This document shows, piece by piece, positions 760 through 40,716 of a stretch of 64,000 bases of DNA. The translations under genes were made by a program, and so were the position numbers. Every line of letters begins with the position of its first letter. Positions within the stretch are counted from its first letter, which is position 1. Source of the DNA: Antedon mediterranea (Eukaryota > Animalia > Echinodermata). The stretch lies in the NCBI RefSeq assembly GCF_964355755.1, contig NC_092673.1, positions 35,089,648 to 35,153,647 of the forward strand, written 5' to 3'. The notes beneath the pieces were generated by a model, which was not told the origin of the DNA, ran no database searches, and saw only the letters and a list, made by a program, of their open reading frames with translations.

Positions 760-3238
760 TATTATAATATCACACTGAAAAGGGCAAATTGTTAAGAAGG
801 TTAAAGATGTATTGTCCCCTGAAAAAATAATTCTTAAACATTTTTTTTTAATAGGCAATATAAATGTCCATTTAAACATAATAGTTATCCACTTTGACCA
901 AATTGGATCGGGGAAAAAAAATGTATTTACCTAAAAAACTGTAATTTAAACAGAGTTTATTAACATAGAACCATTGTTGCTTTTCAACCTTTAGTGGGAC
1001 CACCTCCATGTATTACAACAAATTGTTTCTGTATTGTTGTTGTGTAAAGTACGAAAACAAAAGAACGAACTAATTCAGAGAATTCTACAGCTGACCAGCT
1101 GAAATTAAGTTGTTGTTTGTTAAGACATGTTGAGAAACGTTGCCATGAAGAAGGGCAGAAATATTATATAATACGTAATATATACGTTTGAAATCGTTGT
1201 CCTTGCTCCAATTGAAGCAGGGCAGAAATATTATAGATACGTTGAAAATCGTTGCCCTTTCTCCTATTGAAGCAAGGCAGAAATATTATAGATACGTTGA
1301 AAATCGTTGCCCTTGCTCCTATTGAAGCATGCCAGATATATTATAGATACATTGGAAATCGTTGCCCTTTCTCCTATTGAAGCAAGGCAGAAATATTATA
1401 GATACGTTGAAAATCGTTGCCCTTGCTCCTATTGAAGCAGGGCAGAAATATTATAGATACGTTGAAAATCGTCGCCCTTGCTCCTATTGAAGCAGGGCAG
1501 AAATATTATAGATATGTTGAAAATCATTGCCATTGCTCCTATTGAAGCAGGGCAGAAATATTATAGACATGTTGAAAATCATTGCCCTTGCTCCTATTGA
1601 AGCAGGGCAGAAATATTATAGATACGTTGGAAATCCTTGCCCTTGCTCCTATTGATGCAGGGCAGAAATATTATAGATACGTTGGAAATCCTTGCCCTTG
1701 CTCCTATTGATGCAGGGCAGAAATATTATAGATACGTTGACAATCGTAGTCCTTGCTCCTATTGAAGCAGGGCAGAAATATTACAGATACGTTAGAAATC
1801 ATTGCCCTTGTTCGCAGAACGGAGCAGAAATATCACTTTGCATTACCTTACCAGAGTATAATCTCTCCGAGTAGGCTGCATAGCTGATTGATACGTTGAA
1901 AACCGTTGCCCTCGTGGTTCATTCACGGGGCAGAAATACAGAATACAAAGGAATCAGTCCTGCATTTATTATAATTTATGTATTTGTATATAATATGTTA
2001 AATACTGTTGCCTATATCATTGTTTTTTGTAGTATAACATAATTAATATTGTATTGTGTCCTCATATACAGTAAAATCTTTATTAATGGACACTTGTTGA
2101 CTAAATGAGAGAAAGTTGTACAACCTCAGTTTAAATTTATACTTAAAGAACACAATTTATTGTCTGAACAGGGCTAATACTTATGAAAACTGTTCTTAAA
2201 TATTCAGAAGTGTTATATGTATTGGTCTCAAAAGTGTCCCTTAAATAGGATTCTACTGTATATCTTAATTCTACTTGATTGTTATGTCAATCTCATGTCT
2301 GGTTTTTGTAGTTCAGTATGGTAATGATGTATATTTTGATACTCCCTCCAATACATGCTTTTAGTTTAAAGGTTTTCATAATAAATAAATACTAGTAAAG
2401 TTACAACTTCAGTACACCAATTGCTTTTAAAAGGAAATAGAGTTGAGTATGTCTTTTGGACCATTCCCCAAACAGACAGACAACAACAACAGAAATGTGT
2501 CCAGCAATACATTGTTTATTGGAAACACATTCTAATTTTCTCATTAATTAGATAATTATCTTCTAAAATTATTATCTTCATAAGTCACTTTGATGACATC
2601 ATCGTATTATAAATTGGATTAAAAAGTGGGTCTCGTAACTTCATCTACTGTATGCTACAACACTGTATATAACATATACAGTGCATTCTGTAAATACTGT
2701 AATGTGCTGTATGTTACAAAATAAGTACAGTCCAGCACTGTAAAACATATTTAATTCATGTCATAGGACGGCATTATTGTCGGCGTTCAACAATTTTAAC
2801 GTATGTGCATATGGCATTTTCGTGGATAACCCGAACTTGTCGAAGTGACAAGTTCAAATCTAGTATATCTTGTATTTGTAGTTAAGTTTAATATTGGTGA
2901 TGAATTATATTATATTTATACTGTGCACAGATCACTTACTTTTAAGTCATTTTTTTTCTGAATCTATATATAAATTATTATTAATTAAAACCTTGCAGAA
3001 AATGTTGTACAGTATTTCTATTAGATATGTTGAAGAGATAAATAAAAAATGATAAAATGTAAAGAAGGGTATATTGTTTTCTTTGTTTGTAATTTCCCTT
3101 ATCAAACAATATTTAGGCCTAGTTTTATTTATGTTGACGTTTTAGTTATCAATGACGACGACAGTATACAGAATCTACTACTGCATCAGTAAAAGTCCAT
3201 TTGTTTTCTAGACGTGATGTTTATAAATATTGACACAT
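760..3238 (+). repeat. Segmental duplicate of the region downstream of the NLR gene (paralogous to ~40740-48478); probable 3' flank of an upstream paralog outside the window
   Basis: Collinear matches, e.g. acgaaaacaaaagaa.gaactaattcagagaattctacagctgac (1051 vs 41641), the 55-bp minisatellite, tatactgtgcacagatcactt and aatattgacaca (3226 vs 48465). Confidence 0.85.
1143..1815. repeat. 55-bp minisatellite, ~12 copies
   Basis: Unit gcccttgctcctattgaagcagggcagaaatattatagatacgttgaaaatcgtt; period 55 (1254 to 1309). Confidence 0.95.
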
Positions 3239-5817: not shown

Positions 5818-7019
5818 AAAAAAGCCCATTTCAAGTCCAGCCTTCTATTCAAGATAGTATTGACATTTATTTTCGTGAGATATTTGAATGTCATTGTCAT
5901 TGTCAAAGATCATGTTATCATATCAGTATAAAATGACCTAACAACCATTAATTATCTCAATAATCAAGCCTTGTATATTTAATATACAATTATTGTTTTC
6001 CAAATGGTACTGTGATTGCATCTTGTATCTTCTCTTGTCTGCTTCCTTGCCATGTTCTATGTACAGTTGGGACCTATTCTATTTACATTCTTTGATGCAA
6101 TGGAGCTTTTATGGACAATGTTGAATCTCTAATGCCAATAGCCTTATATTAAAATATTCCTTTTACACTGCCAGCAAAAAAATTTAAGATTATACAGATT
6201 TGTATAATCGAATCACATGAAAAAATACATAATTAGTCTAGTGTAAAGATCACCTAAAGGTTATAAATGAAATTACCTTTGAGAGAAAATAGAAATAGAC
6301 CCACATAGATACTACATAAAATGAATTACACACATAAAAAACAGGAATTCTTATAAGATTAAGATAAAACTTTAGAATTCTGCAATTGTATTTAATTATG
6401 GTATATTACAGTATTAGTATACATATAGCTAAAAAAATACCTTAAAAAATGTTGTATTTATATATATTGTTTAAAACAGGTCGGTAAGATAATTCTTAAG
6501 GTTATTAAGCTTAAAACGATTATTTTTTTTAATTAAATAATAATTGGTCACAGCTGATCCACAGGCAGGTTTCTGAAATGTGGAATATTACTGAGAAAAG
6601 GATGTTGTTAAAGAAATACAGTAATATTGTTATTGTTATTAAATAATAAATTAAAGTAATATGTCACTGTCAACCGGTCTACTTGTTGTTAAAATCTTTT
6701 TCTATCGTATCATTTATCCAATAGTTCATTATATATAAACCATAGGCTTTCTGAACTTTTATTTCTATTTCTATCTCTTAAATGGCTTAACAAATAATTA
6801 TATGGATCATATTACGGAAATAATATTACAGGTTTATTTTGCACTTATTTTAAACTGTTTCTGTTTTAGAACAAGTCCTTGTTTTGTTTTTAAACAATGA
6901 TTCAATTCTTGCATACCTGGAAACAGGTATTAAATGATGGAAACACAAGCATTAACAACTTTGTCCAATCATGATTCAGCTACGATGTCAGACAGAAAAT
7001 AACAACTTAGAACCAGTTT

Positions 7020-7247
7020 GAGGCATTCATTAAGGAGTGGCTTGTTGCATGTCAAGCAACACATTTTCAGCAACTTATAAAGATGTATGCTGTACATCAA
7101 TATACCTGATTGAGCCTTCTTTGCATGTGAATGGTAACCTTAGTGCAACTTATCAAGATGTACGCTGTACATCAAGATACCTGAGCCTTCTTTGCATGTG
7201 AATGGTAACCTTAGTGCTACAAGTAACAACATCTGCATCAATACATT
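7020..7247 (+). other. Putative non-coding 5'UTR exon block (3' part), conserved with 58085-58230
   Basis: Shared taaggagtggcttgt...gctgtacatcaagatacctgagcct...att|gtaagt; consensus donor at 7248 and 58231. Confidence 0.45.
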
Positions 7248-10059
7248 GTAAGTAGATATTGTTGTGTATACTATTTTAAAGAAGTTGATTGTAATTGTGT
7301 TTCACGTATAATTGTAAGTTTGCGTTGTATTAATTTGACAACTGTATAGGCAAAGAAAGCCAATGCAAATATAAAAAAGCGATCAGATTTATCAAATTTT
7401 ACTTAGAAAAAAGCGCATCTAATTTTGTCGATGATTCTGTTTGTCAGTTTACTATTGGTAATCCTTAAACACATGTGCCTAAGACATAAACAAACACATT
7501 TTTTTTTTTGGTTATCATTCCTAGATGTCAAAGTCCATTCTTAAAGTAAAAAGTACTTGCTTGATAAAACAAAGACTAAGTTTTTCACTTAAGCGCTGCT
7601 TATCTGGTAAGAAATATTTATTAATGCTAACCCAGTACTATATATGTTATATTTATGATGTCACAAGAAATACTTTATTTCATTTTAATTCTTCACATAC
7701 AAAAGTTAATCAAATAACAAGAACATACTGTAGTAATGTTTAAAAACGTTTAAAAAAAACAGTAAATAAGTAAATAAATAAATGTTGAGTTGAGATAGTT
7801 GAGAAAAAATGACAAAGGCAGAATTTTATGCCTAAAAGCAAATAAAACAAAACAGAAAACGGTAAAAAAAACACCATAAAAAAATTAATAAATGTAATGT
7901 AATATGTTTTAGGATCCTTCTGAATTTGAGTCAATAAGATTTTTAGCATAAAAAACAACTGGAACCACAAATAATTTTACCCAACTGCTTTACTAGTTTT
8001 AATATAAAAGACATTTTTATTTATAATAATTCATAGTAATAATAACAATAGTTATATATTATGTTATTATTTTTTCTATTTCCTTTGTATGACTGTACTA
8101 CTGGTAATTTTTGTCCTTGTCATTTTGATGTGATTTGGGCCTTTATATTTTTATATGGTTGCAAATTCATTAACAAAATCTATCGCAGTTCAGTTTTACT
8201 GGGAAGATGATTTTAATAAATATACCACAAACCCATTTTATAATACACCTATTACGTATCACATGCCATGCATTATTTGGATCCTTCCTCAATTTGGATG
8301 GAGTACAGTACATTATATGTTGCATATGTTTATGTAAACATTGTGCAACATTAGGCTGGGGTGTTAAATGCATTCCAATTCTGAACAGGATTGTTTTTCA
8401 ATTTCACGAGCGCGTTATGCATAAGTCAGGTTAATTCAACACCAAGCGATGGTGCCAAAGAGGCATCCCGGACGCGTTTTGATTTTATCTGTTGGTGCAT
8501 GTTTTTTTATGACACCAAAAGAGTGCCACAACTTCCATGCTTTTCAACATTTATAACATTTTGGCATGCATGCATGGAGAATTAGGGATATATTTGAAAT
8601 TAGGCCTATCATTGTCTATTTTATCTACAATTTACGAAACTATCCTTTTTTTTTAAATGTTATATACTGCATTTATTTGACTATTGAATTTGAATTGAAT
8701 TTTTCATTAGGGTTTTTAGCGGGGCGTTTATATTCGAGGAAGGCGTTTATTTTTTGGGTGTAATGTGGTAACATGTATAACAAAATAAGTACCCCTAGAT
8801 ATAAGAAAATACAACACAATTAATATCTAGGCCTAGACTTGATCAAATACAGTAAAAATACTTGTTAAATTGTAGATCATATCAATCAATGAATACTACA
8901 AATAGAAATGTAGTATATATGCATGCGGCAAGACGTTTATTCAAAATGATGGAAGGGGGTGGGGAGGTGGCGTTTATTTGAGGGAGGTATTCATGTATAG
9001 TGGTCACTGATGAGTGCGGATAAGACACCATATTCACTTATTAGCTCTGATTTTAAGGTAAAAATAAGATGGCCAATCATGGTTTTGGACGAATTTGTGA
9101 TACGTGTTGGATCGTTAATTAGCTGCGTCATTTGAAATGCTCATTAAAGTGAATCACTATCATTTACTGAACTTATTAGTAGACTAGGCCTATACTATGT
9201 AATTGAATATTGTCATTACTATACGATACAGAAATACTAAATGTACATAATTATATAATACTAGTAACGTATTAAGAGTGTAAAAACCAGCCGGCTATTT
9301 AAATATGTCCAAGTTTTTGCACTTTATAAACATTCAACTGTGGTACTACTCAGGTCAACGATGTACAAAACAGGAAGACATTTACCACCGATTTGTTGCA
9401 ATAAAGTAGTTCCTTGTTACATAATTTTTCAAAGAACAACTGAATGAGCTCTTTGTTTGTTCATGGTATCTCTTAACTTAATGCGCTTTGTACGTAAGTT
9501 GAAAGATGCCAATAAATACTGCATTCAATCGTTTTTCTATTTTTGCATTTAGAAAATTAATTTATTATACAGAAAAATATATATATATACATATTCTCCT
9601 CCCTACCATATGCCTTAATGCAGTGTAAATTGTAGCCAACATACCAAGTCTACAAGTAAAAATCAGGCCTATTTTCCATCCCAATATAGCCAGACATTTT
9701 CAAAGTATACAGTGTAATTTCCGACAACCTAGCAGCTCTATTTTTTAAAATCCCCCCCCCCCCTTAGCCCCAACCATGGTTGTGCTGAGATACAACTCAC
9801 AAATGTTGTCTAATTCAAAGTAGAAGTGCAATTTTCGGTGACCTATTTTTGCACCCACTGACGGATCCTAGGGCTCTGTGATGCATTTTCGGGACCTGTT
9901 TTTGCACCCACTGACGGACCCTAGGGCTCTGTGATGCGGCTAGCGCCGCCCCTGGACCCCCTAGACAGCCCCAACCAATGAATACTAGGTTCGCGCGCAT
10001 GATGAACACTTTGTTCCTGGTATCTCTTAACTTAAGGAACAGAATACGTTGGTTTACTT

Positions 10060-11620
10060 GTAAAATCAATGTTATTTGTTCTTCTTTATAGTAATCTATT
10101 TGGCTAAATATAAAATCTGGAAAAAAGAAGAAGAAAAGAAATGTTTCTTTTTTAATTTTCTACTAAAGATCTATCAAGTTATTTTAAAATATCATGAACA
10201 ATAAACAAAGCATTCGTTCATAGTTGTTTTCATTGTTATTTGATTTAATATGAAACCAATTCAAACTGATTCCCAGAAAACTGAGGCTTGGCTTCCTGTT
10301 TTTTACATTGTTGATCTCCATATCAAAGTTGAATGTTTGCTTTTATTTCAAAGTACAAACAATTTGATAAAGCAAAAAAAAAAAAATATTGTATTGGCCA
10401 CTCCTGACCAACTCTGACTTGACCGTTCTCAGTAAACTGGAAACAATTTAGATTACAGTAGGTCCTTTACTGACCCATTGCCTACCAAGATAGTATATAG
10501 TACTAGATAAGATAAATAAACAAAACAACTTATAGTACTACTTTATTAAAAATAAACCAGTCTGCTATTATTATATTTATTATGATTATTATGATTTTGA
10601 TGATATTTTTTTGCACTTAGTATAGTAAGCATTCAACTCGGGTTCTTCTCAGGTCAACGATGTAAAAAACAGGAAGCCATTACCACCGATTTGTTGCAAT
10701 AAAGTAGTTCCTTGTTAAATTATTTGTTCATTGTATCTCTTAACCTAATAGACCTTGTACAGTTGGGATGGTTCAAATGTAGTACATGTTCAGTATCCCT
10801 GATCTTTAAATATCACCATATATTTTAAAATGTATTTTAAAATGTATCTTCCCAGTAGAATATGTTGACCCATCATTCCCAACCCACAAACTCTCAGTGG
10901 TAGCTTTCAAATTCAAAATGAAAGTTTTCATTTTAGTATCCCATATACAGTATATGGTTACGTGCAATAACAAAAAAATGGTATAAAGAACAAACATCCT
11001 AAAGCTCTGTCTACACTATCAAACATTATGTGTCAACAAATGTGATGTGCCCAAATATGGTAGTGCTAATGCATCAATATGGTAGTGATATGGGCACATC
11101 GCATTTTTGACACACAAAGTTTGATAGTGTAGACTAGGCTTAAGTGGGGAATTTTGGCAGATAAATTAAATCCAAGGTGGTGGATTATATTGAAACGTCA
11201 TACAATTCTGGTCACTTTGATACCCCATGTGTATGGATGCGTGCAAGCAATACAAACATTTGTAAAACAAACAAAAACGTACAAACTCTTTCTCTTTTAT
11301 AATATATAAACATGTTGCTATATAATTATCAAAGTTTTTGCACTTTGAAATAAAAGCAAACATTCAACTTTGGTATTGAGATCAACGATGTAAAAAACAG
11401 GAAGCCAAGCCTCAGTTTTCTGGGAATCAGTTTGAATTGGTTTCATATTAAATCAAATAACAATGTAAACAACTATGAATGAACGCTTTGTTTATTGTTC
11501 ATGATATCTTTTAACTTAATAGATCTTTAGAAGGAAACTTAAGAAAAAAGATTTTTTTTTTCAAATTTCACAATTACCAAAATAGATTACTTGAGAAGAA
11601 GAAATGATAACATTTATTTT
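10060..11620. repeat. About 300 bp inverted repeat pair (10060-10370 and 11325-11620)
   Basis: gaaaccaattcaaactgattcccagaaaactgaggcttggcttcctgtttttta is the reverse complement of taaaaaacaggaagccaagcctcagttttctgggaatcagtttgaattggtttc. Confidence 0.9.
11003..11140. mobile_element. MITE, PIF/Harbinger (Tourist)-like
   Basis: TIRs agctctgtctacactatcaaac / gtttgatagtgtagactaggct, TAA TSD on both sides; related copy at 49750. Confidence 0.8.
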
Positions 11621-11712
11621 ACTGTGATATTTTTTTTAACAATTTTCTTCACAGAATAAATACGATTGAATATAAGGAAGTTAGTTGTGAAGTTTAACAT
11701 CTACAGTAGTTG

Positions 11713-12801
11713 AACAACATGGCATCTACCAAAGGTATGATATACAGTATGTAATGACCAACAAATAACTCTTAACATCATGGCATCTACCAAAGGTATG
11801 ATATACAGTATGTAATGACCAACAAATAACTCTTAACAACATGGCATCTACCAAAGGTATGATATACAGTATGTAATGACCAAACAAATAACTCCTAACA
11901 ACATGGCATCTACCAAAGGTATGATATACAGTATGTAGTGACCAAACAAATAACTCTTAACAACATGGCATCTACCAAAGGTATGATATACAGTATGTAA
12001 TGACCAACAAATAACTCTTAACAACATGGCATCTACCAAAGGTATGATATACAGTATGTACTGACCAAACAAATAACTCTTAACAACATGGCATCTACCA
12101 AAGGTATGATATACAGTATGTAATGACCAAACAAATAACTCTTAACAACATGGCATCTACCAAAGGTATGATATACAGTATGTAATGACCAAACAAATAA
12201 CTCTTAACAACATGGCATCTACCAAAGGTATGATATACAGTATGTAATGACCAACAAATAACTCTTAACAACATGGCATCTACCAAAGGTATGATATACA
12301 GTATGTAGTGACCAAACAAATAACTCTTAACAACATGGCATCTACCAAAGGTATGATATACAGTATGTAATGACCAAACAAATAACTCTTAACAACATGG
12401 CATCTACCAAAGGTATGATATACAGTATGTAATGACCAACAAATAACTCTTAACAACATGGCATCTACCAAAGGTATGATATACAGTATGTAATGACCAA
12501 CAAATAACTCTTAACAACATGGCATCTACCAAAGGTATGATATACAGTATGTAATGACCAAACAAATAACTCTTAACAACATGGCATCTACCAAAGGTAT
12601 GATATACAGTATGTACAGTAATGACCAAACAAATAACTCTTAACATCTACAGTAAAACAACATGGCATCTACCAAAGGTATGATATACCGTACAGTATGT
12701 AATGACCAACAAATAACTCTTAACATCTACAGTAAAACAACATGGCATCTACCAAAGGTATGATATACCGTACAGTATGTAATGACCAAACAAATAACTC
12801 T
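11713..12801 (+). repeat. 61-62 bp minisatellite, 17 copies, each containing ATG GCA TCT ACC AAA G|GTATGA
   Basis: ATG at 11719, 11780, 11841, 11903, 11965, 12026, 12088, 12150, 12212, 12273, 12335, 12397, 12458, 12519, 12581, 12662, 12742; last two units are longer (~80 bp). Confidence 0.97.
11719..11734 (+). CDS. NLR gene: putative first coding micro-exon (MASTK, phase-1 donor); exon probably starts at 11655
   Basis: Acceptor ttttcttcacag ends at 11654; aacaacATGG start context; AAAG|gtatga donor; splices in frame to 15471 giving MASTKEISVEEFNELL. Confidence 0.6.
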
Positions 12802-13841
12802 TTAGTTTTAACAAAACATAGAATTATGTATACTTTACTACAGTAGTATTCTGTAGTTTATATTTGATATATAGCTGCCTTTGTATGTTTACTGTTCTCA
12901 TTAAACTACTGGCTTTAGTTTTTACCTACAACATCTATTAATTTCATAAACATATTTAAAATTAGTTTTTTAGAATAAATACCAGTATAAAGTTTGTTAT
13001 TAATAAATAATGTTGTTGTTTGATAATAATTTAATTATTTTTACTAACGTAAACCATAAGCAGTTTTAGAATTTTGGACCACTTTTTAAAAGACAGGCAA
13101 TTACTATTAATTACAGTACTAGGTTAATCAATCATACTGCAAATGTTTTTTTTTAAATACCAAAATAGATACGTTTTTTTGGATCTAACAGTGTCCCCTT
13201 AATAGGGGTGTCCCCTGAATAGGAATACCATTATTAAGGGGTCACTAGCAAAAACCCTAAATTGTTCCCTTATTACAGGTTTTCGCTGGAAAAACAAAAA
13301 ACAAATACACCAAGATGAACAATAATTGATTATTAACGTTTCACCAATAAAAACTTTCATGTTTTATCATAATAATATTAATTTTTAAAATTCAAAATGA
13401 TAGAAATGAATATAATTATTCGATCTTCTTTGTTGTTTTTTGTGACAAAAAAAATATTGAACTTCAGTCTCCACAAGTTCAGTTTATTTTGTTGTAAATA
13501 TTGAAAAGGACTAAATACATAATTTGAACGAATACACAAAAACAACATTACAATTTTTTTTAAATGTAATAAAATAGTTTTTATGAATTTTAGTTTCATC
13601 TGGGATAACATTATAAAATTTGGTGCCACTTATGTTATTTTGGTTTGTGGATATAGGTAATTTTATGTTTAATTACGAAATGGAACGAGTTTGTGTCAAT
13701 CTGAAGTAATCTTATTTGACAATAAATTATTTTCTTATACCAGTCAAATTCATTCAATTCAATTTGAAAAACAAATTGTAATCAAAGGATAGTTTAAGAA
13801 AGCTAAGCTGCTGAGTCAGGATATTGCTCACAATTGAGATT

Positions 13842-15435
13842 CATGTACTATATTGCAGTACTATATTCCATGTACTATATTGCATGTACTATATTGCGTG
13901 TACTATATTGCAGTACTATATTGCATGTACTATATTGCATGTATTATATTGCATGTACTATATTGCATGTACTATATTGCATGTACTATATTGCATGTAC
14001 TATATTGCATGTACTATATTGCATGTACTATATTGCGTGTACTATATTGCGTGTACTATATTGCGTGTACTATATTCCGTGTACTATATTGCGTGTACTA
14101 TATTGCAGTACTATATTGCGTGTACTATGTTGCGTGTACTATATTGCGTGTACTATATTGCGTGTACTATATTCCGTGTACTATATCGCGTGTACTATAT
14201 TGCGTGTACTATATTGCAGTACTATATTGCATGTACTATGTTGCATGTACTAAATTGCATGTACTATATTGCGTGTACTATATTGCGTGTACTATATTGC
14301 ATGTACTATGTTGCATGTACTAAATTGCATGTACTATATTGCGTGTACTATATTGCGTGTACTATATTGCAGTACTATATTGCATGTACTATATTGCATG
14401 TATTATATTGCATGTACTATATTGCATGTACTATATTGCATGTACTATATTGCATGTACTATATTGCATGTACTATATTGCATGTACTATATTGCGTGTA
14501 CTATATTGCGTGTACTATATTGCGTGTACTATATTGCGTGTACTATATTCCGTGTACTATATTGCGTGTACTATATTGCAGTACTATATTGCGTGTACTA
14601 TGTTGCGTGTACTATATTGCGTGTACTATATTGCGTGTACTATATTCCGTGTACTATATCGCGTGTACTATATCGCGTGTACTATATTGCGTGTACTATA
14701 TTGCGTGTACTATGTTGCGTGTACTATGTTGCATGTACTATGTTGCATGTACTATATTGCATGTACTATATTGCATGTACATATCGCATGTACTATATCG
14801 CGTGTACTATATCGCGTGCACTATATTGCGTGTACTATATTGCGTGTACTATGTTGCATGTACTATGTTGCATGTACTATGTTGCATGTACTATATTGCA
14901 TGTACTATATTGCATTTACTATATTGCATTTACTATATTGCATGTACTATATTGCATGTACTATATTGCATGTACTATGTTGCATGTACTATATTGCGTG
15001 TACTATATTGCATGTACTATATCGCGTGCACTATGTTGCATGTACTATGTTGCATGTACTATATTGCGTGTACTATATTGCATGTACTATATTGCGTGTA
15101 CTATATTGCATGTACTATGTTGCATGTACTATGTTGCATGTACTATATTGCATGTACATATCGCATGTACTATATCGCGTGTACTATATCGCGTGCACTA
15201 TATCGCATGTACTATATTGCGTGTACTATATTGCATGTACTATGTTGCATGTACTATATTGCATGTACTATATTGCGTGTACTATATTGCATGTACTATG
15301 TTGCATGTACTATGTTGCATGTACTATATTGCATGTACTATATTGCATTTACTATATTGCATTTACTATATTGCATGTATTATATTGCATGTATTATATT
15401 GCATGTATTATACTGCATGTACCATATTGCGTGTT
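13842..15435. repeat. 14-bp minisatellite (gcatgtactatatt)n, ~110 copies
   Basis: Direct inspection; gcgt/gcag/ccgt variants; ends ~35 bp before the acceptor at 15470. Confidence 0.97.
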
Positions 15436-15470
15436 TATAAACTTATAGTGGTGTTGTCTTTACATTTTAG

Positions 15471-16007
15471 AAATCTCAGTGGAAGAATTTAATGAACTGT
15501 TGACTGATACAGCAAATTGGTATGACCGACTTGGATACCTGAAAGCGTTGAAAGTTTTATACAAAGACCATTTGAAAAAATCTAATGTAGCAGTGTCTAA
15601 TGCTAAAAGTGTCTGGTATCTACTACAGGATTTAACAGGCTCTGGAAGTTTAAGTCCATCAAATCTTACTATCATATACGACACAATAAAGATAACCAAG
15701 CAATTTGGCTTTAAGTCAAACGTTAAGAATCAATCTTCAGAAGATATTAAGAACCATGTAGTATCAATGTTGACATCTTACAGACAGAAGCTTTTTCGGT
15801 TGGGACTAGAACTTAAAAAGGATGAAGTATCAAAACTTGATTTTATTTTTAACAATCCATTATTAAAGAACTATCCAGATAGCTGGAGTTTGATTAAGGA
15901 TTTTGAAGACAGAAAGATCATTGATAGCGATTATGCAAGGATGGAGGATTTTCTTAATGTTTTAGAAAGAAATGGAATGACAAAGGCTAGGAAGATTTTT
16001 CTTGATG
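15471..16007 (+). CDS. NLR gene exon: tandem death-effector domain pair A (phase 1-1, 537 bp)
   Basis: ttttag| acceptor and G|gttagt donor; FNELL...LKVLYKDHL...LLQDL...LSPSNLTII, then SYRQKLFRLGLELKKDEV, resembling caspase-8/FLIP DED1+DED2. Confidence 0.8.
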
Positions 16008-17011: not shown

Positions 17012-17545
17012 AAATCTCAGTCAAAGATTTTAATCAACTGTTGATTGATACAGCAGAATGGTATGATCGACTTGGATACCTCACACCCTTGAAATTATTA
17101 TATAAAGACCATCTGACAAAATCTAACACAGGTACAGCTGGAGCTGAAAGTGTCAAGGATCTACTACAGGATTTAACAGCCTCTGGGAAATTGAGTTCAT
17201 CAACTCTTACTCTTCTGTATGACACAGTAAAAATAACCAAGCAATTTGACTTTAAGTCAACAGTTAAAAATCAACCTCCAGAAGATATTGAGAAACATGT
17301 GATATCAATGTTGACACCATTTAGACAAAAGGTTTATCAACTGGGATTAGAACTTAAAGAGAATGATGTATCCACACTAGATTCTTTATATAACATTCCA
17401 GTAAAGAAATATCAAGACAGCTGGAGTTTGATTGAAGACTTTGAAGAGAGAGAGATCATTGATAAGGATTTTAAAAAAATGGACAAATTTTTTACAATTT
17501 TGGAAATAAATGGAATGACAGGAGCAAAGAAGATATTCATTGACG
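17012..17545 (+). CDS. NLR gene exon: tandem DED pair B, duplicate of A (phase 1-1, 534 bp)
   Basis: tatag|aaatctcag acceptor and G|gttagt donor; colinear protein similarity to the 15471 exon (EISV..FN.LL.DTA.WYDRLGYL...KIF.DG). Confidence 0.8.
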
Positions 17546-19680: not shown

Positions 19681-19755
19681 ATGTGGAATCAAATGAAAGA
19701 GTAATGAAGCTTTCTTCTTTAAACTGGGAACAACAACTATCACCAACAGATAAAG
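19681..19755 (+). CDS. NLR gene linker micro-exon 1 (75 bp, phase 1-1): DVESNERVMKLSSLNWEQQLSPTDK
   Basis: aaacttag| and AAAG|gtataa; open in the required phase; paralogous to micro-exon 30926-30973. Confidence 0.7.
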
Positions 19756-20081: not shown

Positions 20082-20624
20082 ACAAAACTGAAGCAGATGT
20101 TGATGCCTTGTACCTTAAGGATAAGTTCCAAACTTTAAAATATGAACTTAGCAATATCTATAAGGGTCAGTTTTACAAGTGGTTGATATTCTGCCTGTGT
20201 GATAAGATATGTGTGGAAGATTTTACCTGTGATGATGGTACAGGAATTCTTTTATTGAATGAACTTCAACGAACTGGTAAAATCACACCTTATAAATTTA
20301 CTGTTCTGTTGGATATTGCAATTTTAACCGGTTTTAGAGAGGCTGAAGGTCTGGTAATTCAATATATGATAGATAACAATGTTGAACCTGTTGATGACGA
20401 AAGGCTGTCATTGTTTCGACAACAACTATTCCAGGTTTTAAGAGACTGTGGAAAAAATGAGTTGAAGAAAGTTAATCAAAATTATGATGTACTGAAAACA
20501 TTTAAATCGACAAATATTTGGGATTCTGTGCTAATACTAGAGAGAGAAAAACTCCTAAACACACCTGCACACATAGATAAGTTTGCACATCTTCTTGGAA
20601 AATCCACTGCACAGAGACTACTTG
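20082..20624 (+). CDS. NLR gene exon: tandem DED pair C (phase 1-1, 543 bp)
   Basis: tttttgcag| and G|gtatgt; FQTLKYELS...LIFCL...LLNELQRTGKITP...LSLFRQQLFQVL; homologous to the 62033 exon. Confidence 0.8.
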
Positions 20625-20773: not shown

Positions 20774-20946
20774 TGTAATGTATTATGTATAGCTATAGTA
20801 TTCTCAGATACTCCTAAATATTAGTATAGCGCCACCTATGTTGAAATAAAACTGATTTACAAAATGGACGATACACTGTTTATGTCATGAGGCATGAGGT
20901 CTATAAACAATCAATTGTAATCCACAAACATCTTCAGTATACAACA
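20774..20946 (+). repeat. 5' LTR (173 bp)
   Basis: Near identical to 30625-30787; tgta...caaca; contains aataaa. Confidence 0.92.
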
Positions 20947-20949
20947 AAT

Positions 20950-21735
20950 AGACACGTTTCGCGCACGCGAGGTCACCGTCAGTTTGACCTTTTAGTGGGT
21001 ATACAATGGTAAACAAACACAGCGAGAGGTATGTTAAAGCATGGGAGAACTGAGAGATGATCATCTTAAAAAGCAATTGTCAAAACTAGCCTTTTGATGA
21101 AATGGCATGGTAAGGATGTTATTTATTTTCTAAACTTATGTTTTATATTCACTGTAGAATTATTTGGGCATTTGGTTCGGAATCATCGACTTTATTTATG
21201 TATTGTCATTTTTGGTTTGACACATATATATTGCATTTAATACATGTTAACTGTTGATTTTATTTACAAATGTTGCGTAAATATATTAATTATTATCTTT
21301 CATTCTTCTTCATGCTCCTATTGCATCTTCCATGTATTATGTGATGTTCTTCGGCGCTTAAACAGACACCAAGCCTCCTACTAGGCCTAGTAGACGAATA
21401 ACCGCATCAGGCAACGCCACCGGGCGGGCGGAGAGACACGAGCACATCGTGGACGTACCTTTCCTTGAAAAATTTCCAAGATTTTGCGCCACTATCCTTC
21501 GGAGCCGACGCAAACCACTCAGCAAGTATTTGAAAATTAAAAACAGGAATATTATTCAGTGATTTTGTGTTCACGATTTATCCAACATATACAACATTTA
21601 TGATGCACCTTGCAACAAAAGCACTCGGCAGTCGCCATTTCGCTATGCTTCAACACGCACTAGGCGAGAGGTGTTCGGTTTGTTTACAAATCTATACCCA
21701 CTATTTCTGATTGGTCGCGAGCGCGAAACGTGTCT
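20950..21735. mobile_element. Non-autonomous TIR DNA transposon (786 bp) between the LTR and the PBS; AT TSD, possibly ISL2EU-type
   Basis: TIRs agacacgtttcgcgc / gcgcgaaacgtgtct with AT on both sides; removal puts the PBS 3 nt from the LTR end. Confidence 0.85.
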
Positions 21736-21788
21736 ATTGGCGACGAAGATTAAAATAAGGTAACGTTATAGAACAATTATAACAAAAA

Positions 21789-30925: not shown

Positions 30926-30973
30926 TTGCAGAATCTACTGAAAGAATAATGAAGCTATCACCAATAGATAAAG
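30926..30973 (+). CDS. NLR gene linker micro-exon 2 (48 bp, phase 1-1): VAESTERIMKLSPIDK
   Basis: tatttag| (alternative in-phase cag at 30931) and AAAG|gtattt; similar to micro-exon 19681. Confidence 0.7.
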
Positions 30974-31312: not shown

Positions 31313-34300
31313 TTATCAAGACGTTCTTGAAAGAACACAAAAAACAATCATATCAAGATATGCATCTACTGGGAACAGCAGTTTTTAATGAAGAACACAA
31401 AGTTAACATTGCTGACGTATTCACAGATCTCAAGTTACTTCAATCTACAAAACAAAAACAGGTTGACCAAGCAACAAGACGGCAAGATGCTAAACCAACA
31501 AATTTAGTACATGTGTTGAAGATGATAAAATATAGAAGTTCATGTAAAGTTCTAATAACAGGTAAAGGAGGGATGGGAAAGACAACTCTTCTTAGACACA
31601 TTACTTATAACTGGGCTACTAATAATGATGATACATTTGCTGACAAAGTATTGTTTCTGTTAAATATCAGAGACATAGAGCCAGGAAAGACAATCATAGA
31701 TACTATTGTTGATGAAATTGACCTTGAAATATTTGCTAACCATATGAAAAAGATATCCAATGAGGAACCTAAGGAATTAATAAAAACGTTCATGATAGAA
31801 AAGGGGAATGAAATAGTTATACTATTAGATGGATTAGATGAGTTAAAGCAAGATGCTAAAAAACCATTACAATTATTGAAATTTAAATCTGACTATAAAA
31901 ATACCACAATAATAACATCACGACCTGAAAATATTACAACATTTGTTGAAAACTGTGATGTAGGTATTGAAGTTAATGGATTTAGTGAAGAAAGTATGAA
32001 GCTTTATATTCAGAAATATTTTACAGAAAAACCTAAATTAGGAAAAGTGTTAATCATAAAATTAAATCTTATTTCACACACGAATTCTGATTCAGAGGAT
32101 TCAAAAGATTTTGATCAAGAAATTTCAGATTCAAAAGATTCAGATTCTGAAAATTCTGATTCAGAAGATTCAAATTCAAAATATTCCGATCCAGAAATTT
32201 CAGATTTAAAAGATTCAGATTCTGAGAACAAACACACTGATCCATTTAGAAATATAGATATCATTGAACTGTGTTCATCTCCTTTATTATTACTTCAGAT
32301 TTGTAGCATTTGGGAAGAATCAGAAAAGCTTCCCAATGATTTGTCAGATCTTTTCAAAGAACTAATTTGTTGCACTTTAAATCAATATTTATCCAAAACA
32401 AATAGTGAGGGGAAGAAATCTACAATTGCACATTTTGAACAAATTCGAGGTGATTACAAAACTGCTATCCTAGCGTTAGGCCAATGTATTTATGAACGAC
32501 TAAAAACAAATGAACTGATAATTGACAAGTCTCAGTTCACAAATATGGTAAAGGATGAGGATAAATCAATAGTGGACTTGGCACTAAAAATTGGATTTGT
32601 TTACAAAAAGCCACCTCTTAATAAAAGAGATAAAAAAGAGATCTTCTCTCCCCCACACAAGCTAGTTTCGGAGGCATTAGCAGGGTTTTACCTTTCTGAT
32701 AAGTGTCATTCAGATAATTTGAAGGAGGAGGAGTGTGAAATGATAATATTTAATAAATATCTACATATGACAATTATATTCACAATAGGATTCTTAGGTG
32801 ATGATGCTGGTAGATTAATGAAACATTTGATGAAAGTGAAAGCTTCAAACTTGTATTCACTAGCAAAGTATTTCAGATATGTAAAGAAAGAACATGAATA
32901 TTCTGTAATAGAGCAATTAGAAGCAAAAATATCTAGTGATGAAGTACTTACAGAAACATGTTTAGAAATGTCTGAATCATTTAGATGTGCTCTAGATTAT
33001 ATTAACCCTTTGAGTGAGCAAATAGCAACATCACAAATGCAATTGGTAAAACTTATGAGCAGATGTTATGGTTTTTTGAATGAACAGTGGAATTCAGTAA
33101 TTATGGAGAAAAGACCCACTACATCAACTACAGAATTTTGTGCTATGGTAGTTCATTTCTTAATATTCATGTATACACCAATAAGTGATGATGAAGAAGT
33201 ATTTGAATTCGAATCGTTTGTGAAAGACAATGAGATTGGTACTATTGCAACTATGATGGACAAATTTCAATTTCAATATGGCTTTAAAAACATTTCATTT
33301 GATAAATCACAGAGTCCTAATTTCTTGATACATTGTTTGAAATATTCACCCAACCTGAAAAATATCTATTTTAAACCTGAGAGTTTAACCATTATTACAT
33401 TAAACCACGTTCTTGAAAATATCTTTCCACTTGATCTAAAGCTTCATATTGAAAAGGATGATCTAAGTAATATTGATGCTGTTTCACTTTCTAAGTTGGG
33501 GAGTCTAGTTGAGAAGTTTACATTTAGTAACTGTAACTTATCAGTTGATCACCTAAATGTTCTTGTAAATTTCTGTTATGAATGTGATAGGATATTGACA
33601 TGGAAGAAGTTGGATTTAAGTCGAATTAACCTATGTTCAATTGAAGGATCAAAATTAGCTTGTTTATTAAAATTCTCTCCACAACTAGAACATCTTGATA
33701 TGAGTGAGTGTAATCTCTCAGGTAGTATTATAAAAGATTTATTGAATGAATGTGATAAAAACAATGTGATATTAAAGCGAGGTATGGTTGATGTAACGAA
33801 AAACAATCTTTCAGATATTGATGTTGATACACTATATAAGTTGGTGGATTCAGATTGTACGCATTATTTAATGTTTAAATTTTGTGATCATAGCCTGTCA
33901 GTTCATCACCTGAAAAGTCTTATAGATGTATGTTGTGAACATGGTAGGATATTGATATGGGAAGAGTTGAGTTTAAGTAGGATTAACTTAGCTTTAATTG
34001 AAGGATCAAAATTAGCTTGCTTATTAAAATTCTCTCCACAATTACAAAATCTTGATATGAGAAACTGCCATATTTCAGGTAGTATTATAAAAGATTTATT
34101 GAATGAATGTGATAAAAACAATGTGGTATTGAAACCTGGCATGATTAATCTAGGGGAAAACAATTTGTCAGGTATTGATGGTGGTACACTATTTAGGTTG
34201 ATGGATTCAAATTGTATAAATTATTCTACTTTTGAATGGAAAGATTATAGCATGTCAGTTGATAACCTAAGAGGTCTTGCAGATGCCTGTTATGAACATG

Positions 34301-37300
34301 GTAGGATATTGACATGGGAACAGTTGAATTTAAGGTGGATTAACCTAGCTTCCATTAAAGTATCACAATTAGCTTGTTTATTAAAATTCTCTCCACAATT
34401 ACAAAATCTTGATATGAGAAATTGCCATATTTCAGGTAGTATTATAAAAGATTTATTGTATGAATGTGATAAAAACAATGTGGTATTGAAACCTAAATTG
34501 CTTGATCTTCAGGAAAACAATTTGTCAGGTATTGATGGTAGTACACTATTTAGGTTGATAGATTCAAATTGTATGAATTATTCTACTTTTAAATGGAAAG
34601 GTTATAGCATGTCAGTTGATAACCTAAGAGGTCTTGTAGATGCCTGTTATGAACATGATATGATATTGACATGGAAAGATTTGAGTTTATATGGGGTTAA
34701 CCTATGTTCAATTGAAGGATCAAAATTAGCTTGTTTATTAAAATTCTCTCCACAACTTGAACGTCTTGATATGAGAAACTGCCATCTTTCATGTAGTATT
34801 ATAAAAGATTTATTGAATGGATGTGATAAAAACAATGTGGTATTGAAACATGATATGCTTGATCTAGAGGGAAACAATCTTTCAGATATTGATGGTGTTA
34901 CACTATTTAGGTTGGTAGATTCAAATTGTATGAATTATTCTACTTTTGAATGGAAAGATTATAGCATGTCAGTTGATAACCTAAGAGGTCTTGTAGATGC
35001 CTGTTATGAACATGATATGATATTGACATGGAAAGATTTGAGTTTATATGGGGTTAACCTATGTTCAATTGAAGGATCAAAATTAGCTTGTTTAATCAAA
35101 TTCTCTCCACAACTTGAACGTCTTAATATGAGAAACTGCCATATTTCAGGTAGTATTATAAAAGATTTATTGAATGAATGTGATAAAAACAATGTGGTAT
35201 TGAAACCTGGCATGATTAATCTAGGGGAAAACAATTTGTCAGGTATTGATGGTGGTACACTATTTAGGTTGATGGATTCAAATTGTATAAATTATTCTAC
35301 TTTTGAATGGAAAGATTATAGCATGTCAGTTGATAACCTAAGAGGTCTTGCAGATGCCTGTTATGAACATGGTAGGATATTGACATGGGAACAGTTGAAT
35401 TTAAGGTGGATTAACCTAGCTTCCATTAAAGTATCACAATTAGCTTGTTTATTAAAATTCTCTCCACAATTACAAAATCTTGATATGAGAAATTGCCATA
35501 TTTCAGGTAGTATTATAAAAGATTTATTGTATGAATGTGATAAAAACAATGTGGTATTGAAACCTAAATTGCTTGATCTTCAGGAAAACAATTTGTCAGG
35601 TATTGATGGTAGTACACTATTTAGGTTGATAGATTCAAATTGTATGAATTATTCTACTTTTAAATGGAAAGGTTATAGCATGTCAGTTGATAACCTAAGA
35701 GGTCTTGTAGATGCCTGTTATGAACATGATATGATATTGACATGGAAAGATTTGAGTTTATATGGGGTTAACCTATGTTCAATTGAAGGATCAAAATTAG
35801 CTTGTTTATTAAAATTCTCTCCACAACTTGAACGTCTTGATATGAGAAACTGCCATCTTTCATGTAGTATTATAAAAGATTTATTGAATGGATGTGATAA
35901 AAACAAAGTGGTATTGAAACATGATATGCTTGATCTAGAGGGAAACAATCTTTCAGATATTGATGGTGTTACACTATTTAGGTTGGTAGATTCAAATTGT
36001 ATGAATTATTCTACTTTTGAATGGAAAGATTATAGCATGTCAGTTGATAACCTAAGAGGTCTTGTAGATGCCTGTTATGAACATGATATGATATTGACAT
36101 GGAAATATTTGAGTTTATATGGGGTTAACCTATGTTCAATTGAAGGATCAAAATTAGCTTGTTTATTAAAATTCTCTCCACAACTAGAACATCTTGATAT
36201 GAGTGAGTGTAATCTCTCAGGTAGTATTATAAAAGATTTATTGAATGAATGTGATAAAAACAATGTGGTAGTGAAACGTGATATGCTTTATCTACGGGGA
36301 AACATTCTTTCAGATATTGATGGTGTTTCACTTGTTAGGTTGGTGAATTTTTTTTTTGCACAACATAATGGTGATGACGAGTTTTATGAACCACCTATTG
36401 GTTATGCTAACAGTGTTTATTTTCATGATTACAGTCTGTCAGTTAATAACATAAGAGGTATTATAGATGCTTGTTATGAACATGATTGGATATTGAAATG
36501 GACAAGTTTGAATTTAAGTGGGATTAACTTATCTTCAATAGAAGGATCAAATTTAGCTTGTTTATTAAAATTCTCTCCACAACTAAAACGTCTTGATATG
36601 AGGAATTGCCATATTTCAGGTAGTATTATAAAATATTTATTGAATGAATGTGATAAAAACAATGTTGTATTGAAACCTGGCATGCTTGATCTAGAGAAAA
36701 ACAATTTGTCAGATATTGATGGTGTTACACTATTTAAGTTATTAGATTCAAATTGTATGAATTATTCTACTTTTGAATGGAAAAATTATAGCATGTCAGT
36801 TGATAACCTAAGAGGTCTTGCAGATGCCTGTTATGAACACGATGAGATGTTGACATGGGAAAAGTTGAATTTAAGTGGGATTAACCTAGCTTCAATTGAA
36901 GGATCAAAATTAGCTTGTTTATTAGCTTGTTTATTAAAATTTTCCCCAAAACTTGAATGTCTTGATATGAGAAATTGTCATCTCTCAGGTAGTATTATAA
37001 ACGATTTATTGAATGAATGTGATAAAAACAATGTGTTATTGAAACCTGGCATGCTTGATCTAAAAGAAAACAATTTGTCAGGTATTGATGGTGGTACACT
37101 ATATATGTTGGTAGATTTAATTAATTGTATGAATTATTCTACTTTTGAATGGAAAGATTATAGCATGTCAGTTGAAAACCTAAGAGGTCTTGCAGATGCC
37201 TGTTATGAACATGATAGGATATTGACATGGCAACAGTTGGATTTAAGTGGGATTAACCTATCTTCAATAGAAGGATTAAAATTTGTTTGTTTATTGAAAT

Positions 37301-40300
37301 TCTCTCCACAACTACAACATCTTGATATGAGTAATTGCCATCTCTCAAGTACTATTATAAAAGATTTATTCAATGAATCTGATAAACACAATGTTGTATT
37401 GAAACCTGGCATGCTTGATCTAAATGGAAATAATCTTTCAGGTATTGATGGTAGTACACTATTTAGGTTGATGGATCTAATTTATATAAATTATTCCAAT
37501 TTTACATGGTGTGATTATAGCCTGTCAGTAGATACCCTTAGAGGTCATATAGATGCCTGTTATGAACATGGTAGAATATTGAATTGGAAGTGGTTGAATG
37601 TAAGTGGTACTAACCTGTCTTCAATTGAAGGATCAAAATTAGCTTGTTTATTGAAATTTTCTCCACAACTACAACATCTTGATATGAGAAATTCCCATAT
37701 CTCAGGTAGTATTATAAAAGAATTATTAAATGAATGTGATAAAAACAATGTGGTATTAAAACCTGGCATGCTTCATCTAAAAGGAAACAATCTGTCAGAT
37801 ATTGATGGTGATACACTTTTTAGGTTGATGGATCTACTTTCTAAATGCAATATGGATCAATATGGTTATTGTTCCATAAGTTATTTGGCATGGACTGATT
37901 ATAACCTGTCAGTTGATAATCTAAGATGTTATTTGGACACCTTAGATAAACATGGTCAAATATTGGATTTGTATATTTTGAATTTAAGTGGGATTAACTT
38001 GTCTTCAATTGAAACATCAAAACTGGCTTGTTTATTGAAATTGTCACCACAACTACAACAACTTGATTTGAGTGATTGCCTTCTCTCTGGTAGTATTATA
38101 AAAGATTTATTAAATGAATGTGATAAAAACCATGTGGTATTGAAATCTGGCATGCTTGATCTAAAGGGAAACAATCTTTTAGATATTGATGGTGTTACAC
38201 TATTTAGGTTGGTGGATCTAAATTGTATAAAGCATTCCACTTTTAAATGGGATGATTATATCCTTACTGTTGATGACTTAAGGGATTTTATTAATGCCTG
38301 TTGTGAACATGGAAACATTTTAACATGGAAAAAGTTGAGTTTAAGTGGAATTAACCTAGCTTCAATTGAAGGATCAAAATTGGCTTGTTTATTAAAATTC
38401 TCTCCAAAACTTAAAACTCTTAATATGAGTAATTGCCATCTCTCAGGTAGTATTATAAAAGATTTATTGGATGAATGTGATAAAAACAATGTGGTATTGA
38501 AACCTGGCATGATTGATCTTAAAGGAAACAATCTTTCAGATAGTGATGGTGTTACACTGTTTAGGTGTATAAATCTGATTTATAATAACTTTTATTACAA
38601 GTATGTTTGCATTTTTATGGATTACTATATTTTTAATTGGAATGATTATAGCCTGTCTGTTGATAACCTGAAAAGTCTTGTAGATGCCTGTTATGAACAT
38701 GGTAGGATATTAACATGGGAAAGATTGAATTTAAGTGGGAATAACTTATCTTCAATTAAAGGATCAGAATTAGCTTTTTTATTAAAATTCTCTCCATATT
38801 TAAAACATCTTGGTTTGAGATATTGTCATCTCTCAGGTAGCATTATAAACGATTTATGGAATGAATGCGATAAAAACAATGTGGTATTGAAACCTGGCAT
38901 GTTTGATCTAAGAGGAAATAATCTTTCTGAAATTGATGGTGTTAGACAATTTGGGTTGGTGAATTTAATTTATAACAAATACACTTTTGAATGGTGGTAT
39001 TACATGCTTTCAGTTGATAACCTGATAAGTCTTGTAAATGCCTTGGATGGTAGGATATTGACATGGACAAACTTAAATTTAAGTTTGATTAACTTATCTT
39101 CAATTAAAGGATTACATTTAGCTCTTTTATTAAAATGTTCTCCAGAACTAAAACACCTTGATATGAGTAATTGTCATCTCTCAGGTAGTATTATAAAAGA
39201 TTTATTGAATGAATGTGATAAAAACAATGTGTTATTGAAACCTGGTATGCTAAGGCTTGATCTAAAAGGAAATAATCTTTTAGATATTGATGGTATTTCA
39301 CTTTTTCGGTTGATGGATTTAAATTGTATGGATTGTTGTACTTTCAAATGGAAAGATTATAGCCTGTCATTAGATAACCTAAAAAGTCTTATAGACGCCT
39401 GTTATGAACCTGGTGGAATTTTGAAATGGGAAAGATTGGACTTAAGTGGGATTAACCTATCTTCAATTGATGTATCAACATTTGCTTATTTATTAAAATT
39501 CTCTCCAGATCTAGAACATCTTGATATGAGTAATTGTTGTCTCTCAGGTAGTATTATGAAAGATGTGTTAAATGAATGTCATAAAAGCAATGTGGTATTA
39601 AAACCTGGCATGTTTGATCTAATAGAAAACAATCTTTCAGATATTGATGGTGTTTCTCTATTAAGGTTGGTGAATCTAATTGATATGGATGATGACACTT
39701 TTGAATGGTATGATTATTATAACATGTCAGTTGATAATCTAGAAGGTTTAATAGATGCCTGTTATGAAGATGGTAGGATATTGAATTGGAACAGGTTGAG
39801 TTTAAATGGGATTAACCTAGGTTCAATTAAAGGATCAAAATTAGCTTTTTTATTGACACTCTCTCCAAACCTAGAATGTTTTAACATTAGACATTGCAAT
39901 CTTTCGGGTAGTATTATAAAAGATTTATTGACTGAATGTGATCAGAATAAAGTGGTATTGAAACCTGGCATGCTTGATCTACATGGAAACGATCTTTCAG
40001 ATATTGATGGCCTTTCACTTTTTAGGTTGGTGAATTGTATGAATTATGACACTTTTAAATGGTGTGATTATAGCCTGTCGGTTGATAACCTTGTGAATAT
40101 CTGTAAGGGGAATAATAGTAAGTTAACATGGAGCTATTTAGATTTAAGTGGACTTAACCTTGTAGGATCCACTTTAGCTGGTTTAATACCATTATTTCCA
40201 TTACTAGAACATCTCAGTTTGGAAAATTGCAATCTTTCAGGTGGTATGATAATGTCTGTATTGGATGAATGTGAAAGAAATGGAATAGTATTGAAAAAAG

Positions 40301-40716
40301 AAATGCTGAATCTGATGGGCAATGACCTTTCAGATATCACAGATGAAACATCAGTTGCTAAATTAGAATGGATCAGTACTAATCGGTTTTCTAATCTGAA
40401 CTCGGATTTAGATAATTTTGGAAATGAAAACTTAGACTTTGACAACTTAGAAAATGAAAACTCAGATTTAGACAACTTAGAAAATGAAAACTCTAATTTA
40501 GACAGTTTAAAAAACAAAAATTCAGACTTTGGCAACTTAGGAAATGCAAAATCAGACCCAGAAAACACTGATATCTCTGATGACCAAGACAATTCAGATC
40601 CAGGAATTGCAAACAAATCTAAAGTGGCTCTAATAATGTATTTTTTCAATTATTTTTTACTATTTATTTTGCTTATGTATATTTTCAATTTGTTATTTGG
40701 CCTACAATTTTTTTAG
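31313..40716 (+). CDS. NLR gene giant terminal exon (9.4 kb): NACHT NTPase, HD1/WHD/HD2, ~19 x 119-aa LRR super-repeats, acidic linker and hydrophobic tail
   Basis: ctaac branch motif and ttaacag| phase-1 acceptor; Walker A GKGGMGKTT (31561), Walker B ILLDGLDEL, sensor ITSRP, CSSPLLL, WHD PPHKLVSEALAG; LxxLxLxxNxL repeats; 3129-aa uninterrupted ORF. Confidence 0.95.
33490..40340 (+). repeat. Coding tandem repeat, 357-bp basic unit, with a near-identical 1071-bp (3-unit) duplication
   Basis: Antisense shadow ORFs at 34290/34647/35004/35361/35718/36075 are spaced exactly 357; ~34055-35094 is almost identical to ~35126-36165. Confidence 0.95.

What the first reader, a model, noticed from the sequence alone, without database searches (positions are those of the whole stretch)
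11655..12801. The start-codon/5' splice-site micro-exon is amplified 17-fold as a minisatellite
Seen: each unit has a good-context ATG followed by ATG GCA TCT ACC AAA G|GTATGA, a phase-1 donor that matches the phase needed by the first DED exon (MASTK-EISVEEF). The first copy sits 64 nt after a strong acceptor (ttttcttcacag). Unspliced, a typical unit reads MASTKGMIYSM-stop. Inference: using the n-th donor yields the same protein but with n-1 short uORFs upstream. Donor choice and repeat copy number could therefore act as a dial on translation or NMD of a potentially cytotoxic immune receptor.
Basis: partly seen in the sequence, partly recalled or inferred. Interest (0 to 1): 0.8.

Follow-up and report, generated by a model that had tools for sequence, protein, structure and literature searches.

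The report
Start-codon splice site copied 17 times
In a feather-star-like animal, the short stretch of an immune-receptor gene that holds both the start codon and the following splice signal is repeated 17 times in a row; most likely only the first copy, or the first few, are used, as in similar human repeats, so it is probably a by-product of repeat growth and not a tuned expression dial.

Summary
Observation confirmed. Seventeen exact ATG-plus-donor copies lie at 11719-12757, behind an acceptor at 11655, in an intact 3,718-aa crinoid-type DED-NACHT-LRR (NLR) gene. The exon call is supported through paralogues: an annotated Antedon protein starts MASSK-E, a spliced contig joins the homologous ATG exon to a DED exon, and three contigs carry it as a single copy. 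The array grew from an 80-nt duplication and occurs in two samples. The dial is not shown. In the five human genes with such donor-spanning minisatellites, only the first or the first three donors are used, which would make copy number irrelevant. The window is 10% non-coding tandem arrays, two with single-copy counterparts. Against my reading: the one spliced contig over the start of the 15471 exon joins another exon (probably a paralogue), and the run with spliced contigs also holds array sequence past the donor, which may be read-through, precursor or DNA. New twist: the unit includes the start codon, so any later donor adds uORFs; my searches found no such case in print. The scan's earlier notes held no match.

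The parts
6930..7247 (+). Likely upstream non-coding exon (start unknown), donor at 7247
   Evidence: Similar to 57995-58230. The last 18 nt of that second stretch stand spliced in front of an 11655-like exon in X8 contig 15. Both end before a GTAAGT donor. Inferred from a paralogue.
11635..11654 (+). Splice acceptor of the ATG exon
   Evidence: Pyrimidine fraction 0.72. A like acceptor lies before the homologous exon in an X5 contig (loose end at 11672).
11655..11734 (+). 80-nt exon: 64 nt of 5' leader, then the start codon and 16 coding nt (MASTK plus one base), then the first donor
   Evidence: paralogues MASSK-E and spliced X8 contig 15.
11713..12802 (+). Minisatellite, 17 copies of ATG plus phase-1 donor (16 extra pseudo-donors, last at 12757)
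   Evidence: Tandem units are present in runs X1 and X8.
12575..12802 (+). Longer 81/80-nt units that keep about 14 more bases of the exon; likely the founding duplication
   Evidence: Alignment; junction print-out. Order of events inferred.
13842..15434 (+). Second, unrelated 14-nt minisatellite (114 copies) in the same intron, ending 36 nt before the acceptor
15471..16007 (+). Phase 1-1 exon with death-effector-domain-like folds
   Evidence: Pfam DED E 2e-8, 34.8 bits, just under the 35.9 cut-off; 92% to an Antedon protein.
17012..17545 (+). Second DED-like exon, duplicate of the first
   Evidence: A paralogous spliced contig joins the two exon types (X8 record 19).
19681..19755 (+). 75-nt linker exon
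   Evidence: weak match to P0003 residues 180-211 (E 0.055).
20082..20624 (+). Third death-fold-like exon (no Pfam hit)
   Evidence: 35% to the P0002 N-terminus, E 8e-18; frame open.
30926..30973 (+). 48-nt linker exon
   Evidence: from sequence only.
31313..40716 (+). NACHT plus 18 leucine-rich blocks of 119 aa, single exon to the stop
   Evidence: NACHT 68.5 bits against cut-off 26.7 and LRR_1 24.6 against 20.6; 357-nt period x18.

Best explanation
The start codon and 5' splice site of the first coding exon of an intact NLR immune-receptor gene are repeated 17 times head to tail, and most likely the spliceosome uses the first donor (at most the next one or two as minor forms), so that the other copies leave with the intron and the protein starts normally. 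Shown: the array, the open gene, single-copy homologous exons in paralogues, and a spliced paralogue with the same exon order. Inferred: an 80-nt duplication between short look-alike words in exon and intron founded the array, small deletions made the 61/62-nt unit, and slippage or unequal exchange expanded it. Exon definition from the acceptor at 11655 would then favour the 80-nt exon over the 141-1,103-nt alternatives. Minor use of donor 2 or 3 would give the same protein behind 2-4 uORFs, a fixed small loss that would not scale with copy number.
For: (1) All five human donor-spanning minisatellites described in PMC1557585 use only the authentic donor (F7, lamin B2, PDGF) or it plus the next two (6-16 with 25 pseudo-sites, CBS with 15-20 repeats). 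(2) No AG inside the array has a tract like the real acceptors: best 0.61 against 0.67-0.78. Units therefore cannot be separate cassettes, and later donors need a longer exon. (3) The function exists without the array. X5 contigs 9 and 11 and X1 contig 3 run from the exon through one donor into unrelated sequence. P0003 and P0010 begin MASSK-E. X8 contig 15 is spliced leader exon to ATG exon to DED exon, with a 16-nt coding part (read by eye). (4) Array birth is common here. Seven non-coding arrays cover 10.4% of the window, and the 80-nt and 29-nt arrays each have a single-copy counterpart in it. A crude model gives 0.035 per window for a founder unit spanning a donor and 0.003 for one spanning an ATG-donor block.
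Against: (1) X8, a run with spliced contigs, holds array sequence past the donor. 7 of 8 listed pieces (10 laid) lie wholly in the array, at depth 19-75, with no drop behind the donor. This fits read-through as well as precursor RNA or DNA multiplied by copy number. (2) The only X8 contig listed over the start of the 15471 exon (record 17, 8 differences in 176) carries 189 other bases in front. Its match begins at 15470, not 15469 as the array exon's end would give, and it is not among the pieces listed on the ATG exon, where only one X8 record fits in part. It is probably a paralogue, but an allele is not excluded. (3) The precedents are all human. The same paper notes that tandem-duplication experiments in globin gave opposite results in two studies. 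(4) This gene tolerates internal exons of 534-543 nt, so longer exons are not barred.
Confidence: 0.62

Rival explanations
1. Copy-number dial: many donors are used, each later one adds uORFs and likely exposes the message to nonsense-mediated decay, so longer alleles would give less receptor.
For: All 17 donors and ATG contexts are intact. Array sequence past the donor is present in the run with spliced contigs. 6-16 and CBS show that pseudo-donors can be used. Tandem units occur in two samples.
Against: No described case goes beyond the third donor, and with a 5'-first rule copy number above three changes nothing. Intact donors are expected in a young array: the few substitutions fall elsewhere, but there are too few to test. 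Similar arrays arise nearby without any splice site.
Confidence: 0.13
2. The array slows or blocks splicing of this intron (17 U1 sites at one end, a 1.6-kb repeat just before the acceptor at the other), so the allele would be damped by intron retention or exon skipping and not by donor choice.
For: Array sequence in X8. The second array ends 36 nt before the acceptor. In F7, distant pseudo-donors went with more exon skipping.
Against: The coding frame is intact over 3,718 codons. The X8 signal is not clearly above intron background (see Tried and rejected).
Confidence: 0.11
3. The array exon is not this gene's working start: the 15471 exon is joined to a different upstream exon, and the ATG-donor block is a remnant.
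For: X8 record 17. The closest proteins, P0001 (92%) and P0002 (88%), put other sequence before the same exon.
Against: P0001's NACHT-LRR part is only 51-59% identical, so it is a paralogue sharing a shuffled exon. X1 shows up to 7-9 contigs over single exon positions, so the family has many near copies, and the companion X8 contig shares several variants with other X1 copies. P0001's N-terminus has no real match upstream in the window. The other 9 in-frame ATG-to-phase-1-donor candidates between 7248 and 15400 have no homologue support.
Confidence: 0.11
4. Assembly artefact.
For: Run X1 may be the sample that was assembled, so it is no independent support.
Against: Units differ from one another in ordered ways. 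An X1 contig holds two ATG-donor copies in tandem, and a second sample (X8) holds unit tail-to-head sequence.
Confidence: 0.03

Closest known systems
Human F7 intron 7 37-bp VNTR (PMC1557585; I read abstract, introduction, discussion and passages)
   Same: The first unit spans the exon-intron boundary, so identical donors are reiterated into the intron.
   Different: The F7 unit holds 4 exon bases of an internal coding exon and 5-9 copies. Here the unit holds the start codon and 22 exon bases, in 17 copies, so a later donor would keep the protein and add uORFs.
Human 6-16 (IFI6) and CBS donor minisatellites (seen only as described in the introduction of PMC1557585; the 6-16 paper itself is not held)
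   Same: Long arrays (25 pseudo-sites; 15-20 repeats) in which two pseudo-donors are used besides the authentic one; 6-16 is interferon-inducible.
   Different: No start codon in the unit is described in the passage I saw; use stops at the third site.
Human lamin B2 (100-bp) and PDGF (81-bp, 16-18 copies) donor minisatellites (same passage)
   Same: Unit size and copy number are close to this array; only the authentic donor is used.
   Different: Internal exons, no ATG described.
Invertebrate deuterostome NLRs with death-fold N-termini (PMC3879445, passages)
   Same: Death-fold, NACHT, LRR order; expanded family with varied N-terminal domains.
   Different: Crinoid family with exon-encoded DED pairs and 18 long LRR blocks; no functional study found (listing).

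Membership tests
Donor-spanning minisatellite (F7/6-16/CBS type) | First unit spans a true exon-intron boundary | tested here: met
   Open gene model; homologous exon spliced in a paralogue. The joint at this locus itself was not seen.
Donor-spanning minisatellite (F7/6-16/CBS type) | Identical donor reiterated in tandem into the intron | tested here: met
   17 of 17 units carry the same donor.
Donor-spanning minisatellite (F7/6-16/CBS type) | Copy number varies between alleles | tested here: inconclusive
   Contigs cannot give array length. An X1 contig shows a different array end or single copy, and X8 shows unit variants.
Donor-spanning minisatellite (F7/6-16/CBS type) | Only the first one to three donors are used | not testable with these tools
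   No raw RNA reads were offered; contigs only.
uORF-controlled leader (GCN4/ATF4-like; recalled, not from a call) | uORFs lie in the mature mRNA | tested here: inconclusive
   True only if a later donor is used; array sequence in X8 is of unclear origin.
uORF-controlled leader (GCN4/ATF4-like; recalled, not from a call) | uORF layout conserved across relatives | tested here: not met
   Three contigs from two organisms carry the homologous exon as a single copy.
Tandem alternative cassette exons | Each copy has its own acceptor and an intron long enough to splice | tested here: not met
   Best AG in the array scores 0.61 and occurs in 2 units; about 40 nt between donor and next ATG.
NLR (death fold-NACHT-LRR) | NACHT domain | tested here: met
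   68.5 bits against cut-off 26.7.
NLR (death fold-NACHT-LRR) | C-terminal LRRs | tested here: met
   LRR_1 24.6 against 20.6; 18 blocks.
NLR (death fold-NACHT-LRR) | N-terminal death-fold domain | tested here: met
   DED E 2e-8 and 2e-7, both under Pfam's cut-off; homologues carry PF01335.
NLR (death fold-NACHT-LRR) | Triggers cell death or inflammation | not testable with these tools
   Inference from domain content only.

The most novel reading that the evidence does not exclude
A natural minisatellite whose unit is the start codon plus splice donor acts as a copy-number rheostat on an immune receptor. Later donors are used, each adds uORFs while leaving the protein unchanged, and animals with different array lengths make different amounts of a death-domain NLR.
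Probability: 0.13. Interest if true: 0.75.

Novelty: new variant of a known kind. Interest (0 to 1): 0.36.

Why it matters
If only the first donor is used, this is an invertebrate example of a known oddity. It still offers a clean natural test of the 5'-first donor rule outside mammals, with single-copy paralogues as controls. If later donors are used, it would be a repeat that changes protein dose without changing the protein, by coupling donor choice to uORF number, on a receptor class whose dose is likely to matter. I found no such case in the held literature.

Tried and rejected
No whole genome is held, so paralogous loci could not be read as DNA. No RNA holder listed: none of the 9 runs is on record as RNA. 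X8 is a guess, which I treat as holding spliced RNA because contigs join exons across introns. Parts without cover, none of them proof: X8 has no cover on 11590-11666 and lists no contig joining a donor to the 15471 exon; X5 has no cover over the unit tail-to-head junction (11755-11831); X9 has nothing on the stretch. Depth ratio X8/X1 on the array is 0.22, against 0-0.63 for 10 intron bins (pooled 0.11), 0.33-1.95 for 8 exon bins (pooled 0.79) and 0.05-4.65 for 9 dispersed-repeat bins (bins classed by eye, 27 of 30 used, 3 exon-edge bins dropped). This is inconclusive, and the tool warns that depth is a poor measure. X1 unit contigs have depth 421 and 550 against 7-16 on flanks, which fits a multi-copy unit but is no copy number. 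No array contig meets the tool's 31-letters-each-side rule for bridging a unit junction. Units as separate cassette exons were rejected. Of 8 proteins found plus 3 cluster members, none begins MASTK; 2 begin MASSK-E, and the others begin differently or are partial. Three look-ups in the scan's earlier findings gave nothing relevant. The 6-16 paper is not held. Searches returned 0 papers. Searches were judged from listings, apart from three papers opened for passages: PMC11508797 (nothing on DED), PMC12776774 (only a CUL4A splicing VNTR) and PMC3879445. No supplements were read.

Full report
Observation. The array is as described. Seventeen exact copies of ATG plus 13 exon bases plus GT start between 11719 and 12742, spaced 61-62 nt, then 81 and 80 nt. 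There is no near copy elsewhere in the window. The first ATG lies 64 nt behind an acceptor at 11655, and the 64 nt hold no ATG. Unspliced, 13 of 17 units read an 11-residue peptide and stop; the other four read 12-34 residues.

The gene. Joining 11719-11734 to 15471-16007, 17012-17545, 19681-19755, 20082-20624, 30926-30973 and 31313-40716 gives 3,718 codons with one terminal stop. Pfam finds DED in the first two large exons (E 2e-8 and 2e-7, under the cut-off), and NACHT and LRR above cut-off. All 8 homologues found are from the crinoids Antedon mediterranea and Anneissia japonica. Death-fold N-termini, DED included, are described for NLRs of sea urchin, amphioxus and sponge (PMC3879445, passages). 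That the protein is cytotoxic is inference only.

Is the first unit a real exon? The evidence comes from paralogues. P0003 and P0010 begin MASSK and continue into the same DED exon type. In run X8, contig 15 matches 11672-11726 with 4 differences. On one side it continues into a DED-exon start in the same phase with a 16-nt coding part (MASIR then E, read by eye). On the other side it continues into 18 bases identical to 58213-58230, which precede a GTAAGT donor. That gives the order leader exon, ATG exon, DED exon, and points to 7247 as this gene's upstream donor. X5 contigs 9 and 11 (organism B) and X1 contig 3 (organism A) pass through one ATG-donor block into unrelated sequence.

Against this: the only X8 contig listed over the start of the 15471 exon, record 17 (8 differences in 176 nt), has 189 other bases in front. 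Its match begins at 15470 and it is not listed on the ATG exon. I read it as a paralogue, for three reasons. The exon is a shared module: P0001 has it at 92% while its NACHT-LRR part is 51-59% identical, and P0002 has it at its C-terminus. X1 shows up to 7-9 contigs at single exon positions. The companion X8 contig 19 shares several variants with other X1 copies. An allele of this locus is not excluded.

Origin of the array. Units 15 and 16 keep about 14 more bases of the exon than the others, and the junctions of units 1-2 and 2-3 are two different deletions of that longer form. I infer an 80-nt founding duplication, shortening, then expansion. Tandem units are present in X1, which may be the assembled sample, and in X8, a different sample of the same organism. 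Such events are common here: seven non-coding arrays cover 10.4% of the window, and the 80-nt array at 42603 and the 29-nt array at 52782 each have a single-copy counterpart in the window. A crude placement model gives 0.035 per window for a founder spanning a donor and 0.003 for one spanning an ATG-donor block. Over the several thousand windows of an animal genome (size assumed), some such cases are expected by chance.

Which donor is used? This was not measured. No unit has a usable acceptor, so later donors mean exons of 141-1,103 nt. PMC1557585 (abstract, introduction, discussion) describes this arrangement in five human genes. F7, lamin B2 and PDGF use only the authentic donor; 6-16 and CBS use it and the next two. 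It reports a 5'-to-3' rule for F7 and notes conflicting results for duplicated globin donors. Under that rule copy number above three is irrelevant, and the dial fails even if donors 2-3 leak. One result keeps the dial alive: X8 holds array sequence past the donor in 7 of 8 listed pieces (10 laid), at depth 19-75. Contigs cannot tell mature RNA from precursor or DNA, a 17-copy unit multiplies any background, and my depth comparison was inconclusive.

Verdict. This is a real feature and a new variant of a known kind. What differs from the described cases is that the unit holds the start codon, so a later donor would keep the protein and add uORFs. Searches showed no such case; the library lacks most subscription journals, and I judged most hits from listings. 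Odds: first-donor use with a near-neutral array 0.62, copy-number dial 0.13, damping by poor splicing 0.11, not the working start exon 0.11, artefact 0.03. Interest 0.36.

Noticed in passing
window 11870-12560: The uORF stop overlaps a new ATG (stop-start). In 62-nt units that ATG runs in frame into the next unit's start. Three of the 62-nt units (4, 6, 10) have lost it by substitution at the same base, in two different ways. Too few events to test.
   Followed up: partly
window 13842-15434: A 14-nt x114 minisatellite ends 36 nt before the 15471 acceptor, so both ends of this intron carry arrays.
   Followed up: no
window 9294-9482, 10608-10730, 11317-11520 and inverted 10060-10370: A motif-bearing stretch occurs three times directly and once inverted upstream of the ATG exon. 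It contains a GGAA-core word like an ETS site (recalled); possible duplicated promoter or enhancer.
   Followed up: no
window 33541-40091: 18 coding repeats of 357 nt give a single open exon of 9.4 kb, far more LRR blocks than in the homologues found.
   Followed up: no
window 7070-7217: A 71-nt duplication lies in the likely leader exon, which holds 12 ATGs in 6930-7247; the normal mRNA may already carry uORFs.
   Followed up: partly
window 20774-30787: The intron holds a retrotransposon-like element (21783-25727, gag/pol-like frames by eye, broken by frameshifts) and LINE-like pieces (25990-28466), between two copies of a 175-nt stretch.
   Followed up: no
window 57995-58230 and 62018-62553: Start of a second family member: a leader exon like 6930-7247 and a death-fold-like exon with its own ATG, 48% to the P0002 N-terminus.
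   Followed up: partly
window 733-3238 and 40709-43415: The region behind the NLR gene is duplicated at the window's start, which suggests another paralogue just upstream. An 80-nt stretch is single in one copy and present 10.7 times in the other.
   Followed up: partly
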